From positions 320,001 through 384,000 of the forward strand of contig CAWDSK010000006.1 of assembly GCA_963804995.1 (NCBI GenBank): 64,000 bases of DNA. The letters run 5' to 3'. The position numbers and the translations under genes were made by a program. The notes under the pieces are model-generated. The model searched no databases, was not told the DNA's origin, and worked only from the letters and a program-made list of their open reading frames with translations. Shown piece by piece: positions 28,302-38,466 of this stretch. The stretch's first letter is position 1. Each line of letters opens with the position of its first letter. Origin of the DNA: an uncultured Acidobacteriota bacterium. GTDB lineage: Bacteria > Acidobacteriota > Terriglobia > UBA7540.

Positions 28302-28787
28302 CTAGGTGCTCTTGACCTTGTATTCGCCTTTCGACGGCTCTAACAACGTATCAAAGAAAACCGGTTCCGGGGCTGGGTCCATGCGCAGCAAGCCCTCAAT
28401 ACTGAAGTGGATGCCGCGCACCACGTCAGAGGAAGGTTGGAGAGTCACCTTTACAGCCTGTAGCCTGGGCTCGAAGAAGCTGATCGCGCTCTTAATGGTT
28501 TTCGTCAGATATTCCTGGTCCTTGACCGACTGCAGGTACAGGCTGGTGGTGTCAGGGACGCCGTAATTGTAAACGGAATGCTCCACCTCCCGCAAAGATT
28601 CCGGGGGGTCTTCAATGGTGCTGCGCGTATTAAAGAGCCACTCCAAATCCCGCCGGAGCGCCGCCCGCAATTCCCGCAGTGATTGTGCTCTGGACATGGG
28701 GGGCTCCAGTTTGCGGTCCGGTTCATCATCGATGAGCCGATCCAGCACCGACAATGTTACGGGGCCTTCCTTGTCAAAAGATGGCAT
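28302..28787 (-). CDS. tssE: T6SS baseplate gp25-like subunit TssE
   Basis: 'SVLDRLID', 'RDLEWLFNTR', 'YGVPD', 'FEPRL'. Confidence 0.95.
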   Translation of the reverse strand: MPSFDKEGPVTLSVLDRLIDDEPDRKLEPPMSRAQSLRELRAALRRDLEWLFNTRSTIEDPPESLREVEHSVYNYGVPDTTSLYLQSVKDQEYLTKTIKSAISFFEPRLQAVKVTLQPSSDVVRGIHFSIEGLLRMDPAPEPVFFDTLLEPSKGEYKVKST

Positions 28788-30616
28788 TAGCTTCCGAGAG
28801 AGGTGATGGCCTGAACGGGATCAAGGCGGACAACCTTTTGGAAGAGTCTATGTTTTTCCGCGTCGTCCCCCTGTACTCGCTGGCTGTTCTTCATGATCAT
28901 CATCAGGGCTTTGGCGATCGTTTTGGGGTTTTCCCAGGTCTCCAGGTGATTGGTCTCAATGCTTGACGCTAAGTCTTCAATGATGGGCTGGGCAATCTCC
29001 GTCTTCCCGGCCGCGACGCAAATCTCGGCAAGCTGCAATTTTCGGAAGAACTGGCCCCTGCCGGTAAGCTGCCTTTCGACTTCGCGCATCATGGTGTCGA
29101 TGGCTTTTTCGGTTTGTCCTGCCTTCAAAGCCTCGTTCGCCAAGTCGTAACTGTCCACGAATTTTCGATGCCAACCGGGTGCCGAATTATTTTGCTTGAC
29201 CGGAGCTTCCGCGGCGGGCATGCCGTCCGGCGCGGGTGCGCTCTCCGGGGTAGGACTCGGCGTTTCCGCGACCAGTTCCTGCAACCACGCTCGCGTTTCG
29301 CTATTGGCGGCAGGAGTATCATCGAGCAAGCTGACCTCCAGCGCTTGCGGCACATCACGCACCAGAGTCTTCAATTCACTTCGAATGGCGATGGCAATGC
29401 CGGAATAATCGCCCCCCAATCCAGCGCAGGCATCGACAGTGAATTTCTGGAGATCCAGCCAGCCACGGCTGCACGGGAGGGACATGCAGTTTTCCGCGGC
29501 CTCCAGCAGTTCGGTCCACTTCCCTTCAATGGCCAGTCTCTTGATATGCTGTCGCAGCTCGGTAGGGGGACCTTCCAAAAGGGTCATATCCTGTTTGCTC
29601 AAGGCAGCCCGCAACTCACCCCAGCGCAGACCCCTCATCATCAAGTAAGGCGCGGGGCTGAAGGGATCAAGTTTACGGAGGGCTGCCGCGGCGCCCGCCA
29701 CCGCCGTAATCGCTCCTCGACGCTCCGCCGGTTCCTTGTCGCCAAAAGGGATCACAATGCCCGCGGACGCCGACCCCACCAACCTGGGTGTTTCGCCCGA
29801 ACTCGTCTCGGGGGCTGCCTCGGGCTGCCCCGCCTCAACGGGATCCGGCTCCTTCTCGCGCTTCTTCTGGAGAAATCCATGCACGACAGGCCGGATCTCT
29901 CCTAGCACTGACTCCAGCTTGTTAAGGGAAGGCGCCGCGTCGCCAAATTTCGCGTTGCAGGATTCCTTCAGTGGGGCGAGGATTCCCAGGCAACCGTCAA
30001 GGTCCTTCTCGCCTTTTGCGTAAAAAGCCTTGGGAGTTTCTTCGAAACACTTGTCGAGGGCTTCCAGTGCCACCTTCCCTTGCTCAATAGCTGCGGCGCG
30101 GGCCTGCTTAGCTTCGTCACTTTTCGCGTCGTCCTCGTACCCCAGCTTGCGGGACTCTAACACGTCCGTAAAGCCATACGGTTCCTTTTGCACGAGGGGA
30201 ACGCTCTTCAGGGGAATTTCGAACCGGGTGGCGAGGAACTCCAAAGGGGCAGCCCGCATTTCCACATCGCCATCCTCAATCGCGGGGTAGAGCGTGTCCC
30301 AGAATTTATCCACCAAGCCGTGGCAAAGGTTCAACCCTTCCCGGAGGCCGCTAAAGCCGTTTTGCTTTATCCATGCCTCGGTGAGCCAAACCGCCAGCCA
30401 CAAGTCCTTGCTCTTCTTGGTAAGCGCTTCTGTGGTGAGTTTGATGACCAGTGGATTGTCCGCTACTTTGCGGTCGCTCTCGGTCATCCCAGCGGGTGGA
30501 ACCGCTTCCTCGCGCCGGGCTTCCTTGATTTTGCTGTAGATTTCTTCGTAGCGAAGGTCGGCGCCGCTGGGGTTGGGTCCCTCGATAGGATTTAACAGGT
30601 CGTCAGCAAGCGACAT
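28787..30616 (-). CDS. tssA: T6SS TssA (ImpA N-terminal domain, long form)
   Basis: 'LLNPI....PSGADLRY', 'SKDLWLAVWL', 'FWDTLYP', 'GWLDLQ'. Confidence 0.9.
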   Translation of the reverse strand: MSLADDLLNPIEGPNPSGADLRYEEIYSKIKEARREEAVPPAGMTESDRKVADNPLVIKLTTEALTKKSKDLWLAVWLTEAWIKQNGFSGLREGLNLCHGLVDKFWDTLYPAIEDGDVEMRAAPLEFLATRFEIPLKSVPLVQKEPYGFTDVLESRKLGYEDDAKSDEAKQARAAAIEQGKVALEALDKCFEETPKAFYAKGEKDLDGCLGILAPLKESCNAKFGDAAPSLNKLESVLGEIRPVVHGFLQKKREKEPDPVEAGQPEAAPETSSGETPRLVGSASAGIVIPFGDKEPAERRGAITAVAGAAAALRKLDPFSPAPYLMMRGLRWGELRAALSKQDMTLLEGPPTELRQHIKRLAIEGKWTELLEAAENCMSLPCSRGWLDLQKFTVDACAGLGGDYSGIAIAIRSELKTLVRDVPQALEVSLLDDTPAANSETRAWLQELVAETPSPTPESAPAPDGMPAAEAPVKQNNSAPGWHRKFVDSYDLANEALKAGQTEKAIDTMMREVERQLTGRGQFFRKLQLAEICVAAGKTEIAQPIIEDLASSIETNHLETWENPKTIAKALMMIMKNSQRVQGDDAEKHRLFQKVVRLDPVQAITSLGS

Positions 30617-30622
30617 GGTTTA

Positions 30623-31345
30623 TCAGTCTCCCGTTGGAGCCGGACTGAACTCCACTGAGCGCAATTCGAGGAAAGGAAGCTCTTCATCATCTACCAGCCA
30701 CATCTTCTGGCCGAATGGGATCTCCTCATCGTATCCCTCGCGTTGCTCCCACACGGTGGCCCGTCCGAGCCGCACAGCATCATCGGAGTGTTGCCAAGAG
30801 AAGGGAGCAAGCACCGGGAGTAGTACCTCGCCGAGTTCCGCCCCTTTGAACGAGGGCGTTGTGCGAACCGCCGCGGGCGTCCACAGGAGATCTCTTAGCC
30901 GCTTCGGGGGCTCGATGTGAATCGAGGCCACGTGCTCAAGGGGAAGCCATAGGTAAGCGCCTGCTGCAAAAAGTTCGAGTCGGGTTCCGATCCTGGGATC
31001 GGCGTCCGAAAAAGAGCCGAACGGCTTGCCATTGAACGTGCCCGTAGCAGCCGGCGCAGGCGAGTCCGGGCGCTTCGGATACTCTCCGCGGGTAAAAAGG
31101 TCCTGCCGCTGTCGCTCGGCATAGAGCGCACTGCGATAAAGCAGAACCCCTAGCTCACTCAACGGTCCCTCCTGACCCAGCACCTCGAGTTGCTTGTCCG
31201 CCCGCTCATACTCTCCTGCGAAACATAAGAGCTCGAAGAGGAATGTTCGGCGGCGCGCGTCCGTCGGATTATCTCGGACTTCGGTACTCAGGGCCTTCAG
31301 CGCGTCAGCCAACCGGCCGGCTCGAAACAGCTCTTGTGAGTTCAT
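30623..31345 (-). CDS. tagJ: T6SS accessory TagJ/ImpE/HsiE
   Basis: 'RTFLFELLCFAGEYERADKQL', 'DADPRIG', 'LRDLLW', 'RLGRAT.W', 'GQK'. Confidence 0.92.
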   Translation of the reverse strand: MNSQELFRAGRLADALKALSTEVRDNPTDARRRTFLFELLCFAGEYERADKQLEVLGQEGPLSELGVLLYRSALYAERQRQDLFTRGEYPKRPDSPAPAATGTFNGKPFGSFSDADPRIGTRLELFAAGAYLWLPLEHVASIHIEPPKRLRDLLWTPAAVRTTPSFKGAELGEVLLPVLAPFSWQHSDDAVRLGRATVWEQREGYDEEIPFGQKMWLVDDEELPFLELRSVEFSPAPTGD

Positions 31346-31468
31346 CTCCGGCTCTCCCTTAGGACAAACAAATACTCGCCGCGGGTAAACCCGGACCGTG
31401 AGTCAACCCGTACCGCGCAGTCGCTGTCAATTCAAGCCCAGCAGGCAACAGCAACACACATCGACGTA

Positions 31469-31502
31469 TCTTCACGGCCCACCCGCTGGATGGCCGTGAA
31501 GA
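31469..31502. terminator. Stem-loop downstream of hcp
   Basis: TCTTCACGGCC...GGCCGTGAAGA perfect 11 bp stem; no long U tract. Confidence 0.5.
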
Positions 31503-31541
31503 CACTTCTCTCGATGTCACCACCCGGAACGGCCGGCGGCG

Positions 31542-32027
31542 TTACGTCTGTTGCACCTGCTTGATGTCATAAGTTGCCTGGCCGGCCAGGGTAACCGAGC
31601 CGCTCTTGGTATCCTGAGTGTAATACTGGTACTGGATCTTTTCGTACGCGATGCTGAGGCTCGCGTGAGGGACTCCCGTCGCTCCCCCATCTGTATTGAA
31701 ACTGGTAATAAAACAATTGGTCAGCGTGATGACGAGATAGTTATAGGGCGTACCGCCGCCTCCCGTCTTGCGGCCAGTAAACGTGCACGTAGCGACATGC
31801 GCCCCCGTCACCAGGTCCTTTATGATCGCGAAGCTGCCCTCTTCCAGAGCGAAACTGACCGTCAGGTCCGATAGAGAAGGTTTTCCGGCGGCGAGACCTT
31901 TGCCGCCGAGACTGGCAGGATTCGCCGCACCCCAGCTCCAACTTTCGAGCTCGATGTTGTTGGTCATGCCTTGCGCTTGCGATTCACCCTTGACACCTGT
32001 AATGAGCAGATAGTAATCACTGGGCAT
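31542..32027 (-). CDS. hcp: T6SS tube protein Hcp
   Basis: 'VKGES', 'IELESWSWG', 'Y.VITLTN..ITS', position after tssC. Confidence 0.95.
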   Translation of the reverse strand: MPSDYYLLITGVKGESQAQGMTNNIELESWSWGAANPASLGGKGLAAGKPSLSDLTVSFALEEGSFAIIKDLVTGAHVATCTFTGRKTGGGGTPYNYLVITLTNCFITSFNTDGGATGVPHASLSIAYEKIQYQYYTQDTKSGSVTLAGQATYDIKQVQQT

Positions 32028-32118
32028 TGCTCTTTCCTCCTTCTCGCCGAATTGAATTTACAGGTCGACGGCAAAGGCGCACCCTGCGGAAAATCCCGCT
32101 AGAACTGAAAACCGAAAA

Positions 32119-33609
32119 TCACCTCTTCGCCGGTTCCGGCAAGTCAGCTACCAGCCGGAGAGAAACGCTTAGCTCGTCCAACTGAAAGTGGGGGCGAAGA
32201 TAAGTAATCGCCCGGTAGCAGCCCGGTTTGCCCTTGATCTCCTCAACGTCCACACGCGCCTCCCGCAGGGGGAATTGGGCTTTGGTGGCTTGATCGGCAT
32301 TGTCATCCTGGGTGACGTATTGGCCAATCCAGCGATTCAGGAAGCGCCAACAGTCGTCTCGGGACATGAAGCTGCCGATCTTGTCGCGCATCATGGCCTT
32401 GAGGTAGTGAGCGAAACGGCAAGTGGCCATCATGTACGGTAGTTGCGCCGAAATGCGCGCATTGGCGGTGGCGGCATCGCTGTCGTAGATCTTGGGCTTA
32501 TTGCAGGATTGGATGCTGAAGAATGCCGCCTTATCCGTGCCCTTGCAATGAACCAGCGGCACCAGCCCCTGGTCTGCCAGCTCCTTCTCGCGCCGGTCGG
32601 TGATGGCGATCTCGGTGGGGCACTTGAGCGCCACGTCGCCCTCGTCGGTGTTGAAAGTGTGGGAGGGAAGACCTTCCACCAAGCCGCCGCCCTCAACTCC
32701 CCGGATGGCGGTACACCAAGCATACTGCGAGAACGCTGTTGTCATCCTGGCGCCAAGTGCGTAGGCGGCGTTTCCCCAAAGGTATTTGCTGTGGTCCGTC
32801 CCATCCACGCCTTCTTCAAAGTTGAAGGCATCGACGGGCACGGTATCCCGGCCGTAAGGTAGGCGCATTAGAACCCGGGGGCAAGTGAGGCAGACATACT
32901 TCGCGTCTTCGCTCTGCCGGAATCCCTTCCATTTGGCGAACTCGGTGGTATCGAAGATCCGCCCAATGTCCCGGGGTTGGTCCAACTGCGTGAAGCTTTC
33001 CATGTTCAGGAGCTGCGAAGAAGCCGCGGAGAGGAAGGGGGCATGCGCCGCTCCCGAAATTGCTGCCATCTTTTCCAGAAGCTCAAGGTCTTCCGGATGC
33101 TTGCTGAACTCGTAATCGCCAATTAGCGCGCCATACGGTTGACCGCCGAAAACCCCGAACTCCTCTTCGTAAACTTTCTTGAACGCCGCACTTTGATCGA
33201 ATTCTGGGGCGCGTTGAAGGTCCCGCAGAAGGTCCCTCTTGGAGACATTCAACACCTTGATCTTCAGCATGGCGCTGGTTTCGCTCTGGCTGATCAGGTA
33301 CTTTAGACCTCGCCAACTGGCTTCCAGCTTCTGAAACGTGGGATGGTGCAGAATTTCGTTGAGCTGGATGGAGAGCAAATGGTCAATCTGCGCAATGCGC
33401 GCATTGATCATCGCTTCGGTGTCTTTGGAGACGGTTACCTCCCCCTCCAAGACCTGGGAGATGAACTCTTTCACAAGACTCTTGCCGCGTTCCCGAGTGG
33501 CGGCATCCGTTCCCACCCTCCCGGTCTCGACAATCTGATCGAGAAGAGACTTTTCACCGACCTGCTCGGTGGTCTGTGGTTGTGCGGCCGCTTTTGATTC
33601 CTTAGCCAT
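32119..33609 (-). CDS. tssC: T6SS sheath large subunit TssC
   Basis: 'QLNEILHHPTFQKLEASWRGL', 'KCPTEIAITDRRE', 'LRPHFQL'. Confidence 0.97.
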   Translation of the reverse strand: MAKESKAAAQPQTTEQVGEKSLLDQIVETGRVGTDAATRERGKSLVKEFISQVLEGEVTVSKDTEAMINARIAQIDHLLSIQLNEILHHPTFQKLEASWRGLKYLISQSETSAMLKIKVLNVSKRDLLRDLQRAPEFDQSAAFKKVYEEEFGVFGGQPYGALIGDYEFSKHPEDLELLEKMAAISGAAHAPFLSAASSQLLNMESFTQLDQPRDIGRIFDTTEFAKWKGFRQSEDAKYVCLTCPRVLMRLPYGRDTVPVDAFNFEEGVDGTDHSKYLWGNAAYALGARMTTAFSQYAWCTAIRGVEGGGLVEGLPSHTFNTDEGDVALKCPTEIAITDRREKELADQGLVPLVHCKGTDKAAFFSIQSCNKPKIYDSDAATANARISAQLPYMMATCRFAHYLKAMMRDKIGSFMSRDDCWRFLNRWIGQYVTQDDNADQATKAQFPLREARVDVEEIKGKPGCYRAITYLRPHFQLDELSVSLRLVADLPEPAKR

Positions 33610-34135
33610 TGCCCCCCTCCTTCCCTTCTTCCTTCTTGGGTCCGATTTCCGACCGCAATTTGTTTAACTTTTCGGTATTGGTGACGGCGTCCAGCAGGAC
33701 CTCGTCCAACTTATCATTGGTCTGCAACGCGCCCTTTAAATCATTGAGACGGGTACGGAGATCGAGCAGTTCGCGCAAAGGTTTCACCTGCCGGGCGACC
33801 TTCTCGGGCTCGAAGTCTTCCATACTCTTGAAGTTGAGATCGACCTTCAACTGTCCCACATTTTCGTCATCACTCAGCTTGTTGTCGACGGAAAAGGCCA
33901 CGTGAGGTTTCATGCTTTCGAGCACGCTGTCAAAATTATCCAGCGTTATTTCAACAAACCTTCGTTCCTTCAGTTTGGGTAGTGGATCGACGGGCTGGCC
34001 AGTAAAATCACCTAAAACTCCCATTACGAAAGGGAGTTCTTTCGTTTCAATCGCACCACCCGTCTCCACTTCGTAGGTAACGTGGACACGCGGGGGTCGC
34101 ACCCTTGCAAGCTTCTTCTGGACGCTCTCTGCCAT
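33602..34135 (-). CDS. tssB: T6SS sheath small subunit TssB
   Basis: 'RPPRVHVTYEVE', 'ELPFVMGVLGDF'; AAGGAG RBS before ATG 34135. Confidence 0.96.
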   Translation of the reverse strand: MAESVQKKLARVRPPRVHVTYEVETGGAIETKELPFVMGVLGDFTGQPVDPLPKLKERRFVEITLDNFDSVLESMKPHVAFSVDNKLSDDENVGQLKVDLNFKSMEDFEPEKVARQVKPLRELLDLRTRLNDLKGALQTNDKLDEVLLDAVTNTEKLNKLRSEIGPKKEEGKEGGNG

Positions 34136-34187
34136 GGGGTACTCCTTACCTAAGCGTATTTGATGAGCATTTGATCTATGGTGAGCG

Positions 34188-34217
34188 ATTATTGACAAAT
34201 GCCAATGCATTGTCAAT
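34188..34217 (-). promoter_or_regulatory. Sigma70 promoter of the T6SS operon overlapped by an inverted repeat
   Basis: Minus strand TTGACA(34216-34211)-N17-AATAAT(34193-34188); palindrome ATTGACA-N13-TGTCAAT. Confidence 0.65.
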
Positions 34218-34765
34218 CGAAAAGCGACCAGGACTTTCCTCGGCTTTTTAGCTCCCCGAGCGCCCAAGAAAGGCTCAAATTGCGGCTGAGGAGGCGGTGC
34301 TGCGGGAGGACCGGATATTGTGGGCTGCTAAAGCCTGACCGGCTCGAAAGAATCGCAAGCCAACGCTTGGCCTTCATTCCCGCCTGTCCCGGCATGGCCT
34401 CCAGAAATCCCCTTTCGGGGCGCTCCCAGAATCCACTCGAAACCCCAAAGTCAGGGGGCAGTATCTCCAACGCCTTCCCGATCCCTGGTGGAAGCCATTC
34501 AGGTAAGCCTTGGAAACGGTTTGCTTGCGGCAGGTTCGTGGATATTGCCGGACTCTGCCACAATTTAGGGCAACCCGCCGTACGTTTCGTGCCTACCCAG
34601 ATCCAGGGCAGGGGTGTTTTCTTTTGGCCACTAACCTCTAAATACAACAAAGAGCAATTATGAAGGGCAAAGCCCGCAAGAACCACACGCCACATCAAGC
34701 GACGATTCCCTTTGCGGCCTTACTTCTGTTAGAATCAATGCAACACGACGGTTTCATTAGCGCCC

Positions 34766-36799
34766 ATGAAGATCTGCCCGAATTGCCAGCAAAGCTACTC
34801 CGATGAAATTGAGTTCTGTCCGCACGACGGCGCTCGGCTTGCTACCCAAGCGGCGCAAGCCGAAGTGCAGCTTGCCGCCGGACTCTCCCACCGTTTCAGC
34901 ATTGTCCGCCGCCTGGGTGAGGGGGGAATGGGCACGGTCTTTCTCGCCAAGCAGATCCATGTCGGGAATCGCCCCGTGGCCCTGAAGGTTCTGAACCGTA
35001 AGCTGCTGGATGACCCTGAGTTCCTGGAGCGTTTTCAGAATGAAGCGGGTTCGACGGGGAGCATTCATCACCCCAACGTCGTCACCATCCACGAATCCGG
35101 CCAAGCCGATGACGGCACACCCTACATCGCCATGGAGTTTCTGGATGGCAAATCCTTGCGACAAGTGCTCAAAACGGTGGGGGCTTTAAACGTGACGGGG
35201 TGTGCGGAAATTCTGATGCAGGTGGCGCGGGGGCTGAACGCCGCGCACAAGCTCGGCATCATTCATCGCGACCTCAAGCCTGACAACATCTTTCTGATGC
35301 AGGGCGACGAGGGCGAGTTGATCGTCAAGGTCGTCGATTTCGGCATCGCCAAACTGCGCGAGTCAACCACCCACACGCTGACCGGCATGGTGCTCGGCAC
35401 GCCTGCTTACATGTCAGCCGAACAAGCCGCCGGAATGCCGAGTAACGAACTCAACGCGCGCTCCAACGTCTATTCACTGGGGATTGTAGTTTACGAAATG
35501 CTGAGCGGGCGCGTGCCCTTTTATTCCACCACACCCCTCGGCTACGTGCACAAACACATGCTGGAGGCCCCACCGCCTTTTCGCGCCATCGACCCCGGCC
35601 TACCCGTTGCTCCTCAAATTGAAGCCGTGGTGATGAAGGCACTGAAGAAGGACCGGGAGGAACGCTACCAGTCGGCCTTGGAATTCGCGCGCGACTTCGC
35701 GGCAGCCGCCCAGGCATCGCCCCCACCGGAGGTCAGTCAGCCGCTTCCCACAATGAACAGCATCTCGCCGCCAGCAGCGCAGGAGCCCGCTGTGCCCATG
35801 CCGCTGCCCGGGAGCGCATCGGCCCAAGCCGATATTGCCGTTCAAACTACGCCTCCCGCTCCGCCGGCAAGAATTGTTGAAACTCCAAGTACACGGCCGC
35901 AAGGGAGCGAGCCTGCAACGGCAGCAAGCCGCCCGTCCGCTGTGGCTAAACCGCCGCATCTCCGGGCCGTAAAAGAAAGGCCAAGCCGGGTCAAGTACGT
36001 TGTCTTGGGCGTGGTTCTGCTAGCCGTCATCGCGGGCGGGATTTGGTATTTCTCCCGGCCGACGCCGGGGCCCCCACCCCATGTAACGGGCCGGACGGCG
36101 GACGCAGGTAAATCCCCATCTGCGCCGGAAGGCCCGGGTGCGTATGACCCCATGATATCCATCCCCGTCGCGACCTTCGCGATGGGTCGCGACAATGCCC
36201 GCGACCCGGAAGAGACCCCCGCTCATCCCGTCAGCGTCGCGGCATTTAATATGGATAGGAGACCCGTCACGAACGCGCAGTATGCCGAGTTTGTGAAGAG
36301 CACAAGCCACGCTGCCCCTAGTGGGTGGGTGAATGGAACCCCGCCGGAGGGCCAAGCTGAGTGGCCAGTCACGGGCGTTTCCTGGGACGACGCGAACACT
36401 TACTGCACCTCGAAAGGCTTGCGTCTGCCGACGGAGGCGGAGTGGGAATACGCGGCGCGCGGCATGGACGGCAGGCTTTATCCGTGGGGCAATGATTTCA
36501 GCCCGGCACTAACGAACAGCGTCGAGGCAGCTCTGGGCCATCCGGAGAAGGTGGCCTCCCATCGCGATGCCGCCAGTCCGTTCGGCCTTCTCAACATGTC
36601 AGGGAATGTGTGGGAATGGACAGCGGACGATTACAAGCCTTACCCCGGCCATCAACCGGCATTCCAAATCCCCGCGGATGGCAAAGCCATCCGTGGCGGC
36701 TCTTACCAATCGGACAAGCTGCACGTGACCACGACGACCAGAAACCTCAACCACGCCTCCACGCGGTCCACCTCCATAGGTTTCCGCTGCGCCAAGTAG
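34766..36799 (+). CDS. Ser/Thr kinase with N-terminal Zn-ribbon, TM helix and C-terminal FGE-sulfatase (C-type lectin fold) domain
   Basis: CxxC..CxxD, GEGGMG, HRDLKPDN, DFGIAK; 'RLPTEAEWEYAARG', 'MSGNVWEW', 'RGGS', 'GFRC'. Confidence 0.93.
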   Translation: MKICPNCQQSYSDEIEFCPHDGARLATQAAQAEVQLAAGLSHRFSIVRRLGEGGMGTVFLAKQIHVGNRPVALKVLNRKLLDDPEFLERFQNEAGSTGSIHHPNVVTIHESGQADDGTPYIAMEFLDGKSLRQVLKTVGALNVTGCAEILMQVARGLNAAHKLGIIHRDLKPDNIFLMQGDEGELIVKVVDFGIAKLRESTTHTLTGMVLGTPAYMSAEQAAGMPSNELNARSNVYSLGIVVYEMLSGRVPFYSTTPLGYVHKHMLEAPPPFRAIDPGLPVAPQIEAVVMKALKKDREERYQSALEFARDFAAAAQASPPPEVSQPLPTMNSISPPAAQEPAVPMPLPGSASAQADIAVQTTPPAPPARIVETPSTRPQGSEPATAASRPSAVAKPPHLRAVKERPSRVKYVVLGVVLLAVIAGGIWYFSRPTPGPPPHVTGRTADAGKSPSAPEGPGAYDPMISIPVATFAMGRDNARDPEETPAHPVSVAAFNMDRRPVTNAQYAEFVKSTSHAAPSGWVNGTPPEGQAEWPVTGVSWDDANTYCTSKGLRLPTEAEWEYAARGMDGRLYPWGNDFSPALTNSVEAALGHPEKVASHRDAASPFGLLNMSGNVWEWTADDYKPYPGHQPAFQIPADGKAIRGGSYQSDKLHVTTTTRNLNHASTRSTSIGFRCAK

Positions 36800-36906: not shown

Positions 36907-38466
36907 TCAAGGAGCGAACACTTCCCCGCCACAACGGAACCCGACGCCGAGGAATCTGTCACCTGGGGCGCCCCCGTCGCGGGCGGAAACCCGCACGAAT
37001 TTGGACTTGTGGGCAAAGTTCCCGCCACGAAAAACGCGTTTGGTCCCGCGCGTTGGCCCCGCAGGGTCTTGAGCGGGGTTACTCCGATAGTACTTCTCGT
37101 CATTCTCGGGTCTGTTTCTTCGGTTCCCCCAAGCTAGAACTTGAGCGGGGTTACTCCGATAGTACTTCTCGTCATACCAGTCATTCACCCACTCCAACGC
37201 GTTTCCCAGCACGTCGTATAACCCGAATCCGTTGGCTCGTTTCTCGCCCACCGGGTGCGTCTGGTTTCCGCTGTTGGCATCGTACCAGGCGACTTCGGCG
37301 AGCGGCCCATAGCGTGCCGCAGTGCTTCCCCCTCGCGCCGCATACTCCCACTCCGCTTCCGTGAGCAGTCGCCCTCCCGCCCACGTGCAGTATTCGTGCG
37401 CTTCATTCCAGGTTACCGTCACGATCGCCAGACTGTCATTCGCCCAACCGCGATTGAAAGTGGGCGCCGGCGGCAGCTGCCGCCCGGTGGCTGCTGCGAA
37501 GCGTTTGTAAGCGCCCACCGTAACCTCCGTTTGCCCCAGCCAGAAACCTTTCGTGATGGTCACTTGGTGCGGCGGTTTCTCGTCACCGGCGCATTCGTTG
37601 TCCCCGGGCGAGCAGCCCATTTGAAAGCTGCCCGGCGGAATCCACACGTACTTTAGTCCGTCTTTCGGGTTCTCTCGCACTGTCCCGGGCGGCGGTGGAC
37701 CCGCATCCTCCAGATGTGCCTCGATCCTGGCCCCTTGCCCTGCGGGCACGGAAATGTTCTGCCGATATTCCCTCTTGCCCGACGCCGTTATCCGTAGCTC
37801 GTGCGAGCCCGCAGCCACTTCGGGGATGGCGAATTGTCCCCTCGCGTCCGTTGTGCCCCGGCTGGAATCGTCGAGGAAAACCGCCGCACCAGGCGAGGTC
37901 TGGACCTCTACAGTTCCAGCAAGGCCCGCTAGGGGTGCGTTGACACTGGCCTCTTGCCCAGCCGATACGGTAACCTTCTGCCGATAATCCTTTTTGCCAC
38001 CAGCTGAAATTCGCAATTCATGCGGGCCCGCGGCCACATCGCGGACAGATAGTTGTCCCGCCGCGTCCGTCGTGCCCCGGTTGGAACCGTCAAGGAAGAC
38101 TGCCGCACCGGGCGAAGTCTGGACCACGACAGTTCCTCCAAGGTCTGCAAGCACCGCCGTGATTCTGGTCACTTGCCCCACAACCACCATAACCTTCTGC
38201 TCATGATTCCGTTTTCCGGCAAGCGTAACTCGCAGGGCGTGATCTCCGGGCTTGGGATTTTCAATCACCATGCGGCCTTCCGAATTCGCCTGCCCTTTCA
38301 AAGCATCGTCCAGATAGACTCGCGCATTCGGGGAAGTCTGGATGACGATTTGCGTCGGCTTGTTGGTCTGGGATGTTACTTGAGGGAGAAGTTGGGCGTA
38401 AGCGCACAGGACATTAACCAGCGCCAAAGTCATAGCCAGCAGGGAACAACGGATTCTCGTGCCCAT
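36907..38466 (-). CDS. Exported PEGA-repeat protein with a C-terminal FGE-sulfatase domain
   Basis: Signal peptide; three 'QTSP.A.V.LD' repeats; 'TEAEWEYAARGG', 'NGFGLYD..GN..EW', 'GFRC'. Confidence 0.9.
   Translation of the reverse strand: MGTRIRCSLLAMTLALVNVLCAYAQLLPQVTSQTNKPTQIVIQTSPNARVYLDDALKGQANSEGRMVIENPKPGDHALRVTLAGKRNHEQKVMVVVGQVTRITAVLADLGGTVVVQTSPGAAVFLDGSNRGTTDAAGQLSVRDVAAGPHELRISAGGKKDYRQKVTVSAGQEASVNAPLAGLAGTVEVQTSPGAAVFLDDSSRGTTDARGQFAIPEVAAGSHELRITASGKREYRQNISVPAGQGARIEAHLEDAGPPPPGTVRENPKDGLKYVWIPPGSFQMGCSPGDNECAGDEKPPHQVTITKGFWLGQTEVTVGAYKRFAAATGRQLPPAPTFNRGWANDSLAIVTVTWNEAHEYCTWAGGRLLTEAEWEYAARGGSTAARYGPLAEVAWYDANSGNQTHPVGEKRANGFGLYDVLGNALEWVNDWYDEKYYRSNPAQVLAWGNRRNRPENDEKYYRSNPAQDPAGPTRGTKRVFRGGNFAHKSKFVRVSARDGGAPGDRFLGVGFRCGGEVFAP
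37068..37175. repeat. Exact 36 bp direct repeat flanking a unique 36 bp insert, in frame within the CDS
   Basis: CTTGAGCGGGGTTACTCCGATAGTACTTCTCGTCAT at 37068-37103 and 37140-37175; insert 37104-37139. Confidence 0.95.

What the first reader, a model, noticed from the sequence alone, without database searches (positions are those of the whole stretch)
37068..37175. Repeat-spacer-repeat (36/36/36 bp) inside a coding gene: possible natural off-target CRISPR spacer integration
Seen: 36 bp of native coding sequence (DEKYYRSNPAQ) is perfectly duplicated around a unique 36 bp insert (TCTCGGGTCTGTTTCTTCGGTTCCCCCAAGCTAGAA). The 72 bp addition keeps the frame. Simple slippage gives tandem copies without a foreign insert. 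Established: Cas1-Cas2 duplicates a repeat-length target while inserting a spacer-length fragment, and can do so at ectopic sites. Inference: this may be a single-spacer neo-array, or the footprint of another integrase that makes long duplications, and it has added a loop to a lectin-fold domain. No cas genes are in this window.
Basis: partly seen in the sequence, partly recalled or inferred. Interest (0 to 1): 0.75.

Follow-up and report, generated by a model that had tools for sequence, protein, structure and literature searches.

The report
Spacer-like insert in lectin-fold gene
In this bacterial genome assembly, 36 bases of a gene are exactly duplicated around 36 unrelated bases, adding 24 amino acids that related genes lack; this is likely the scar of a CRISPR spacer-inserting enzyme hitting the wrong place, although the assembly itself has no CRISPR genes and no raw reads were available to confirm it.

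Summary
In detail: an exact 36/36/36 X-Y-X unit at 37068-37175 lies in the FGE-sulfatase domain of ORF 36907-38466(-) and adds 24 residues in frame. The syntenic orthologue and 23 of 23 distinct homologous domains lack it, so it is a derived, likely recent insertion. The insert has no identifiable source. The host assembly (92% complete) has no cas gene, no array and no second such unit. The genus does have matching geometry: 14 of 28 congeners have cas1, a type I-B/III system uses 37-bp repeats with mostly 35-36-bp spacers, and one type II array is 36/35-38. Two congeners carry aged units of the same size (37/36, 38/34) with empty alleles elsewhere. The target resembles the I-B repeat only weakly (P 0.05-0.26). 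Best reading: off-target Cas1-Cas2 integration by a lost, unassembled or visiting adaptation module (about 0.55). Rivals are repair-type duplication with DNA capture (0.2) and a long-read artefact (0.15). Off-target integration is known from laboratory work, and this scan has noted it in many other genomes, usually with stronger evidence. This is a modest new example.

The parts
37068..37103 (-). Copy of the 36-bp target X (3' copy in the gene's reading direction; encodes DEKYYRSNPAQ)
   Evidence: 100% identical to the other copy; homologous to the single copy in the syntenic orthologue
37104..37139 (.). 36-bp insert Y, 53% G+C, unique, no source found; with the junction codons it reads VLAWGNRRNRPEN in the gene frame
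37140..37175 (-). Copy of the 36-bp target X (5' copy in the gene's reading direction)
36907..38466 (-). Host gene, 519 aa: N-terminal hydrophobic stretch, three 219-bp repeats (PEGA / carboxypeptidase-regulatory-like) and a C-terminal FGE-sulfatase (SUMF1/EgtB/PvdO-family) domain that carries the insertion
   Evidence: ORF list, 219-nt repeats, Pfam, PDB relatives incl. FGE and Treponema TvpA
36931..37650 (-). FGE-sulfatase domain (residues 273-512); the insertion lies in the connection between two predicted beta-strands
   Evidence: AlphaFold models of moderate confidence
34766..36799 (+). Context: convergent Ser/Thr kinase-FGE-sulfatase gene, syntenic in congener G017
28787..34267 (-). Context: part of a type VI secretion gene cluster (ImpA/TssA, ImpE, Hcp by Pfam; the two genes upstream look like sheath genes, not scanned), syntenic in G017

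Best explanation
The unit is a 72-bp insertion, a 36-bp duplication of the gene's own sequence around 36 foreign-looking bases, likely made by a CRISPR Cas1-Cas2 integrase acting off-target and likely tolerated because it keeps the reading frame. Shown: geometry, uniqueness, the empty allele in relatives, the open frame. Inferred: a spacer-sized fragment was joined to two staggered nicks 36 bp apart on opposite strands, and gap filling copied the target to both sides. Inferred: the event is recent, because the copies are identical while the orthologue's single copy differs at 5 of 36 positions. Inferred: the enzyme came from an adaptation module that this lineage lost, that sits in the unassembled part, or that visited on a mobile element. 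The closest fits in the genus are the type I-B/III module (37-bp repeat, 35-36-bp spacers, period 72-73) and the odd type II array of G002 (36/35-38). The unit has no leader and no cas genes, so it is predicted to be an inert scar, not an immune locus; the 24 extra residues are predicted to form a flexible loop.
For: Empty allele in the syntenic orthologue G017:C28 (82-87% DNA identity over the region) and in 26 of 26 homologue rows, 23 distinct. Of 99 loops matched in 86 of 120 proteins, only this one shows the duplication, and 76 have the standard length. cas1 is in 14 of 28 congeners. The 37-bp I-B/III repeat is in 5 of 28, with periods mostly 72-73, the period of this unit. G002's type II array has 36-bp repeats with 38, 35 and 36-bp spacers. 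In 2.4 Mb from four cas1-positive congeners, 11 candidates passed the filters; two are 37/36 (G023, 30 of 37 identical) and 38/34 (G017, 35 of 38), with empty alleles in G003 and G000. Diverged copies cannot be read errors. The G023 target starts GTTGAA like the repeat family resident there (6 of 7 positions; background 0.008). Y is not a degraded neighbour: the best of 12 comparisons had p about 0.013, not significant after correction. Off-target sites only 43% identical to the repeat are used accurately in vitro (PMC6698737, passages).
Against: No cas1, cas2, cas3-7, cas9, array or repeat remnant in the assembly (92% complete). Only one such unit in 7.55 Mb. X is 36 bp, one short of the I-B repeat, and starts with C, not G. 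Its likeness to I-B repeats is weak: 4 of 7 at the leader end (P 0.26), whole profile P 0.10, ends only P 0.048, a test chosen after looking. It has no likeness to the 36-bp type II repeat (P 0.99). No protospacer was found. Both congener units lie at gene termini, where other duplications also arise: the host has a perfect 30/20 unit at a gene's 3' end that fits no CRISPR geometry. The G017 target does not resemble the I-B repeat ends (P 0.87), the G023 target does not match the whole I-B profile (P 0.56), and a third candidate (G002, 37/33) proved to be a multicopy repeat pair. An open frame is weak evidence: 76% of random 36-mers are stop-free here.
Confidence: 0.55

Rival explanations
1. 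A real insertion made by DNA repair or replication template switching: a break with staggered ends, or a slipped fork, duplicated 36 bp and captured a short piece of foreign DNA. The CRISPR-like lengths would be coincidence.
For: The host has no CRISPR-Cas. It has a second perfect X-Y-X unit of non-CRISPR size (30/20, C3:1021182). It has 49 reverse-transcriptase matches that could in principle template-switch. Y matches the 36 bp downstream in the gene at 16 of 36 positions in register (p 0.014 uncorrected).
Against: No Ku gene. No local template for Y. No significant terminal inverted repeat or hairpin in X or Y. It gives no reason for period 72-73 recurring in G017 and G023.
Confidence: 0.2
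2. A long-read sequencing or consensus artefact: the unit does not exist in the cell.
For: The protein is a singleton cluster seen on one contig only. No independent holder of the unit was found. An earlier scan note reports nanopore-type consensus errors in this assembly (e1-9812939; not tested by me). Y has no natural source.
Against: It is the only perfect unique unit of this size in 7.55 Mb, so it is not a recurrent error mode. None of the motif words tested lies within 37001-37240. Y is not significantly like the reverse, complement or reverse complement of X, as a fold-back would be. Diverged units of the same size in congeners show that the class is biological.
Confidence: 0.15
3. Footprint of another integrase or a tiny mobile element that makes long target duplications, with Y as the element or its remnant.
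For: The genome is rich in small repeats and mobile units. Earlier scan notes describe an insertion sequence here that duplicates 21-bp hairpins (e1-7823253, not tested by me).
Against: Y is single-copy here and absent from 28 of 28 congeners at up to 3 mismatches. It folds weakly (-1 to -2 kcal/mol), and X is not a hairpin.
Confidence: 0.07
4. A by-product of a diversity-generating retroelement, since FGE/C-type-lectin-fold C-termini are typical DGR targets (recalled; TvpA is among the PDB relatives).
For: Domain type. An expanded paralogue family with variable C-terminal positions.
Against: No template repeat for this gene's 3' end: BLAST hits are paralogues only. The RT matches lie in 392-528-aa frames, mostly multicopy, as expected for group II introns (class inferred, not tested by tree). 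The insertion lies upstream of the variable stretch.
Confidence: 0.03

Closest known systems
Off-target (non-canonical) spacer integration giving 'neo-CRISPR' units in E. coli type I-E (Nivala, Shipman and Church 2018; paper not held, known here only through citing passages in 10.1101/148544, PMC7054753 and PMC6698737)
   Same: A repeat-length stretch of ordinary DNA is duplicated around a spacer-length insert outside any array.
   Different: There Cas1-Cas2 was over-produced in the same cell. Here the assembly has no cas genes, the geometry is 36/36, the target is coding DNA with little repeat likeness, and the product stays in frame.
In vitro non-CRISPR full-site integration by Pyrococcus furiosus Cas1-Cas2 (PMC6698737, passages read)
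   Same: Paired nicks one repeat length apart at sites with only partial repeat likeness (43% for the preferred site) and G or C at the borders; X here starts with C on one strand.
   Different: 30-bp spacing, in vitro and on a plasmid. Here no cognate enzyme is in hand and the likeness to genus repeats is not significant.
Type I-B/III CRISPR-Cas of congeners G023, G016, G009, G013 (Cas7/Cst2, Cas5b-like, Cas4, Cmr4, Csx11 in G023)
   Same: Period 72-73 and 35-36-bp spacers; X shares TTGA near the start, CCGAT in the middle and AT at the end with the repeat.
   Different: The repeat is 37 bp, X is 36 bp; the overall likeness has P 0.10; the system is absent from the host assembly.

Membership tests
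Off-target Cas1-Cas2 integration scar (neo-CRISPR unit) | Exact direct duplication of native target DNA around an insert, with an empty allele in relatives | tested here: met
Off-target Cas1-Cas2 integration scar (neo-CRISPR unit) | Duplication and insert lengths equal the repeat and spacer lengths of a CRISPR system in the lineage | tested here: met
   Period 72 as in I-B/III arrays (37 + 35-36; X one base short) and exact for G002 type II (36 + 35-38)
Off-target Cas1-Cas2 integration scar (neo-CRISPR unit) | cas1 and cas2 in the same genome | tested here: not met
   None in the 92% complete assembly; loss or non-assembly not excluded
Off-target Cas1-Cas2 integration scar (neo-CRISPR unit) | Target resembles the leader-repeat junction or repeat motifs | tested here: inconclusive
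   P 0.26, 0.10 and 0.048 (post hoc) against I-B repeats; none against type II or I-C
Off-target Cas1-Cas2 integration scar (neo-CRISPR unit) | Insert derives from a protospacer flanked by a PAM | tested here: inconclusive
   No source found; best seeded hit 27 of 36 among 46 loci
Off-target Cas1-Cas2 integration scar (neo-CRISPR unit) | Present in the cell (read support) | not testable with these tools
Functional CRISPR array | Leader, repeat shared with a Cas6/effector system, further spacers | tested here: not met
   One spacer, coding-sequence repeat without hairpin, no cas genes
MITE or insertion-sequence remnant | Multicopy element with terminal inverted repeats | tested here: not met
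   Y is single-copy and unstructured
Diversity-generating retroelement target | Template repeat differing at adenines, and a DGR-type reverse transcriptase | tested here: not met
   No template repeat; RT class judged from size and copy number only

The most novel reading that the evidence does not exclude
A CRISPR adaptation module passing through a CRISPR-less acidobacterium wrote a spacer into the middle of a ligand-binding-fold gene, in frame, and the cell kept the 24-residue loop. With the aged 72-73-bp units in congeners, this would make stray spacer integration a recurring natural mutagen in this genus, one that leaves datable records of lost or visiting CRISPR systems and can remodel proteins.
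Probability: 0.3. Interest if true: 0.6.

Novelty: new member of a known kind. Interest (0 to 1): 0.36.

Why it matters
If true, it is a natural example of a reaction known mainly from over-expression and test-tube work, here in frame inside a gene and in a genome that no longer shows CRISPR-Cas. Such scars could date the loss or passage of adaptation modules and show CRISPR integrases acting as a source of protein loop insertions. As a single unit without resident cas genes, protospacer or read support, it is weaker than the multi-scar genomes this scan has already noted.

Tried and rejected
Source of Y: own genome; 29 genus genomes at up to 3 mismatches; phage and plasmid collections, only E about 4-5 partial hits; IMG/VR with two 22-mers, 0 hits each, and three 16-mers; metagenome and genome collections with one 19-mer. 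The 46 seeded loci extend to at most 27 of 36. No match among 421 genus spacers.

Reads: one run listed, share 0.09, no RNA holder listed. Its contigs are other organisms; one skips a net 72 bp at this site but with only 24 letters on the short side, so it is not used as evidence.

Fold-back (X, reverse-complement X, X) and a 72-bp tandem duplication with a mutated half: not significant over 12 comparisons. Y as an alternative allele of X: 13 of 36, p 0.13. My first strict scan missed the index unit through a flank filter; searches recovered it.

G002 as positive control: no unit in 0.84 Mb with the strict scan; its 37/33 candidate in the looser scan is a multicopy repeat pair. None in 0.4 Mb of G018. 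The G023 45/45 candidate was not followed up. A genus tree to find the nearest cas-bearing relative was not built (one search gave no sequences).

Structure models are of moderate confidence (mean pLDDT 63 and 66), so they only place the insertion in a loop. Nivala et al. 2018 was not held. Paper searches (listings only) showed no report of natural in-frame scars in Acidobacteriota and no matching nanopore artefact; the library is partial and no supplements were read.

Full report
Observation. The unit is as described. Two identical 36-nt copies (37068-37103, 37140-37175) enclose a 36-nt insert. It lies on the minus-strand ORF 36907-38466 (519 aa), in a Pfam FGE-sulfatase domain, and adds 24 residues without a stop. 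X occurs twice and Y once in the 7.55-Mb assembly at up to 8 mismatches. Chance expectation for an exact 36-mer pair within 600 nt is about 3e-12. Homologue names point to Terriglobia (Acidobacteriota).

It is a derived insertion. Congener G017 has the same neighbourhood (type VI secretion genes, kinase-FGE gene, this gene) at 82-87% identity and a single copy of X. All 26 homologue rows from fetched loci, 23 distinct, lack the 24 residues. Among 120 proteins scanned, 86 gave 99 matched loops; 76 have the standard length and only this protein shows the duplication. The orthologue's X differs at 5 of 36 positions while the two copies here are identical, so the event is likely recent. The protein is a singleton cluster on one contig.

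The host has no visible CRISPR-Cas. No Cas1 or Cas2 was found by profile. tblastn with nine genus Cas proteins found nothing, and no genus repeat matched at up to 7 mismatches. A period scan showed no array. The assembly is 92% complete in 9 contigs. Scans for perfect and aged units found this one as the only unique unit with X of 35-38 bp at period 60-90 (27 kept; 21 kept of 203). A perfect 30/20 unit at a gene's 3' end (C3:1021182) shows that other X-Y-X forms arise too.

The genus has the right geometry. cas1 is in 14 of 28 congeners. Arrays near those genes fall into four types: 29/32 (I-E-like), 37/33-34 (I-C-like), 36/29-32 (type II, Cas9 in G002), and 37/35-36 with I-B and type III genes; the I-E and I-C labels are from recalled repeat motifs. 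The 37-bp I-B/III repeat occurs in 5 of 28 congeners, in one as a single copy, with periods mostly 72-73. G002's type II array has spacers of 38, 35 and 36.

Congeners carry older units of the same size. I scanned 2.4 Mb from four cas1-positive congeners (G023 0.8 Mb, G002 0.8, G017 0.4, G018 0.4), a small part of each; 11 candidates passed. Four have X of 35 or more. G023 37/36 (30 of 37 identical) has an empty allele in G003, and G017 38/34 (35 of 38) has one in G000. G002 37/33 is a multicopy repeat pair and was rejected; G023 45/45 was not followed up. The G023 target begins GTTGAA after 'ca', like the leader-repeat junction of the I-B/III family (6 of 7 positions, background 0.008). It does not match the whole I-B profile (P 0.56), and the G017 target does not match the repeat ends (P 0.87). 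Both lie at gene termini, which fits survival of harmless insertions but also other duplication routes.

Target and insert of the index unit. X matches the I-B leader-end consensus at 4 of 7 positions (P 0.26), the whole five-repeat profile at P 0.10, and both ends together at P 0.048, a test chosen after seeing the alignment. It does not resemble the type II or I-C repeats. Y is 53% G+C against 61% for the gene and unstructured. It is not significantly like X, its flanks or their reversed or complemented forms (12 comparisons, best p about 0.013). No source was found in the genome, the genus, phage, plasmid, viral, metagenome or genome collections, so no PAM can be read.

Mechanism. An exact target duplication around foreign DNA is the product of integration at staggered nicks followed by gap filling (established for Cas1-Cas2 and transposases; own knowledge). 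P. furiosus Cas1-Cas2 integrates accurately in vitro at non-CRISPR sites one repeat length wide, one of them only 43% identical to the repeat (PMC6698737, passages). Off-target integration in E. coli over-producing Cas1-Cas2 is reported by Nivala et al. 2018, which I saw only through citing passages (10.1101/148544; PMC7054753). I put this route at 0.55, with the enzyme lost, unassembled or visiting. Repair or template switching with capture is at 0.2 (no Ku; 49 RT matches). Another integrase is at 0.07 and a DGR by-product at 0.03.

Effect on the protein. AlphaFold models of this domain and of the G017 orthologue, each on a 51-52-sequence alignment, are of moderate confidence (mean pLDDT 63 and 66). 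Both place X in a short helix and coil between two strands. With the insert, residues 169-200 fall mostly below pLDDT 50, consistent with a flexible loop. One homologue (P0107) has a different 31-residue insertion in the same loop. An open frame is weak evidence of selection, since 76% of random 36-mers are stop-free here. The function of the gene is untested; the family is expanded in the genus.

Verdict. A real feature of the assembly and a derived insertion that works like an off-target spacer integration. Membership is not proven: the resident-cas test fails, and the target and protospacer tests are inconclusive. The scan has noted this class in many other genomes, several with tens of scars and a resident system, and two without cas genes (unchecked notes). 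New member of a known kind; interest 0.36.

Noticed in passing
L173:17605-17714 (G023:C17): Aged X-Y-X unit, 37 bp (30 of 37 identical) around 36 bp, at the 3' end of a conserved gene; the target starts GTTGAA like the resident I-B/III repeat family; empty allele in G003. A better-supported off-target spacer candidate than the index unit.
   Followed up: yes
L207:19078-19187 (G017:C6): Aged X-Y-X unit, 38 bp (35 of 38) around 34 bp, over what looks like a gene start; empty allele in G000 C5 near 681,850.
   Followed up: yes
L040:481-733 (G002:C97): Type II array with the genus's 36-bp repeat but spacers of 38, 35 and 36 bp, whereas the same repeat family has 29-32-bp spacers in G008, G017 and G021; the adjacent cas1 is split in two frames. 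Unexplained.
   Followed up: partly
L263:1501-1580 (G000:C3:1021182-1021261): Perfect 30-bp duplication of a conserved gene's 3' end around 20 bp that partly repeat it; not CRISPR geometry.
   Followed up: partly
window 36907-37060 and paralogues: The FGE-sulfatase domain family is expanded across the genus (28 of 28 congeners match, up to 16 places each), with conserved 3' ends and highly variable C-terminal positions reminiscent of DGR variable regions, yet no template repeat was found in the host.
   Followed up: partly
protein P0107: A homologue with an unrelated 31-residue insertion in the same loop; its DNA was not examined for a target duplication.
   Followed up: no
window 28787-34267 and 34766-36799: Type VI secretion genes next to a Ser/Thr kinase-FGE fusion and the PEGA-FGE gene; the arrangement is conserved in G017.
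   Followed up: partly
L257 (G018:C23:242350 region): A lone I-B/III-type repeat with no array around it.
   Followed up: no
L223:11193 (G023:C4): 45/45 imperfect unit (35 of 45 identical), probably a protein-level repeat.
   Followed up: no
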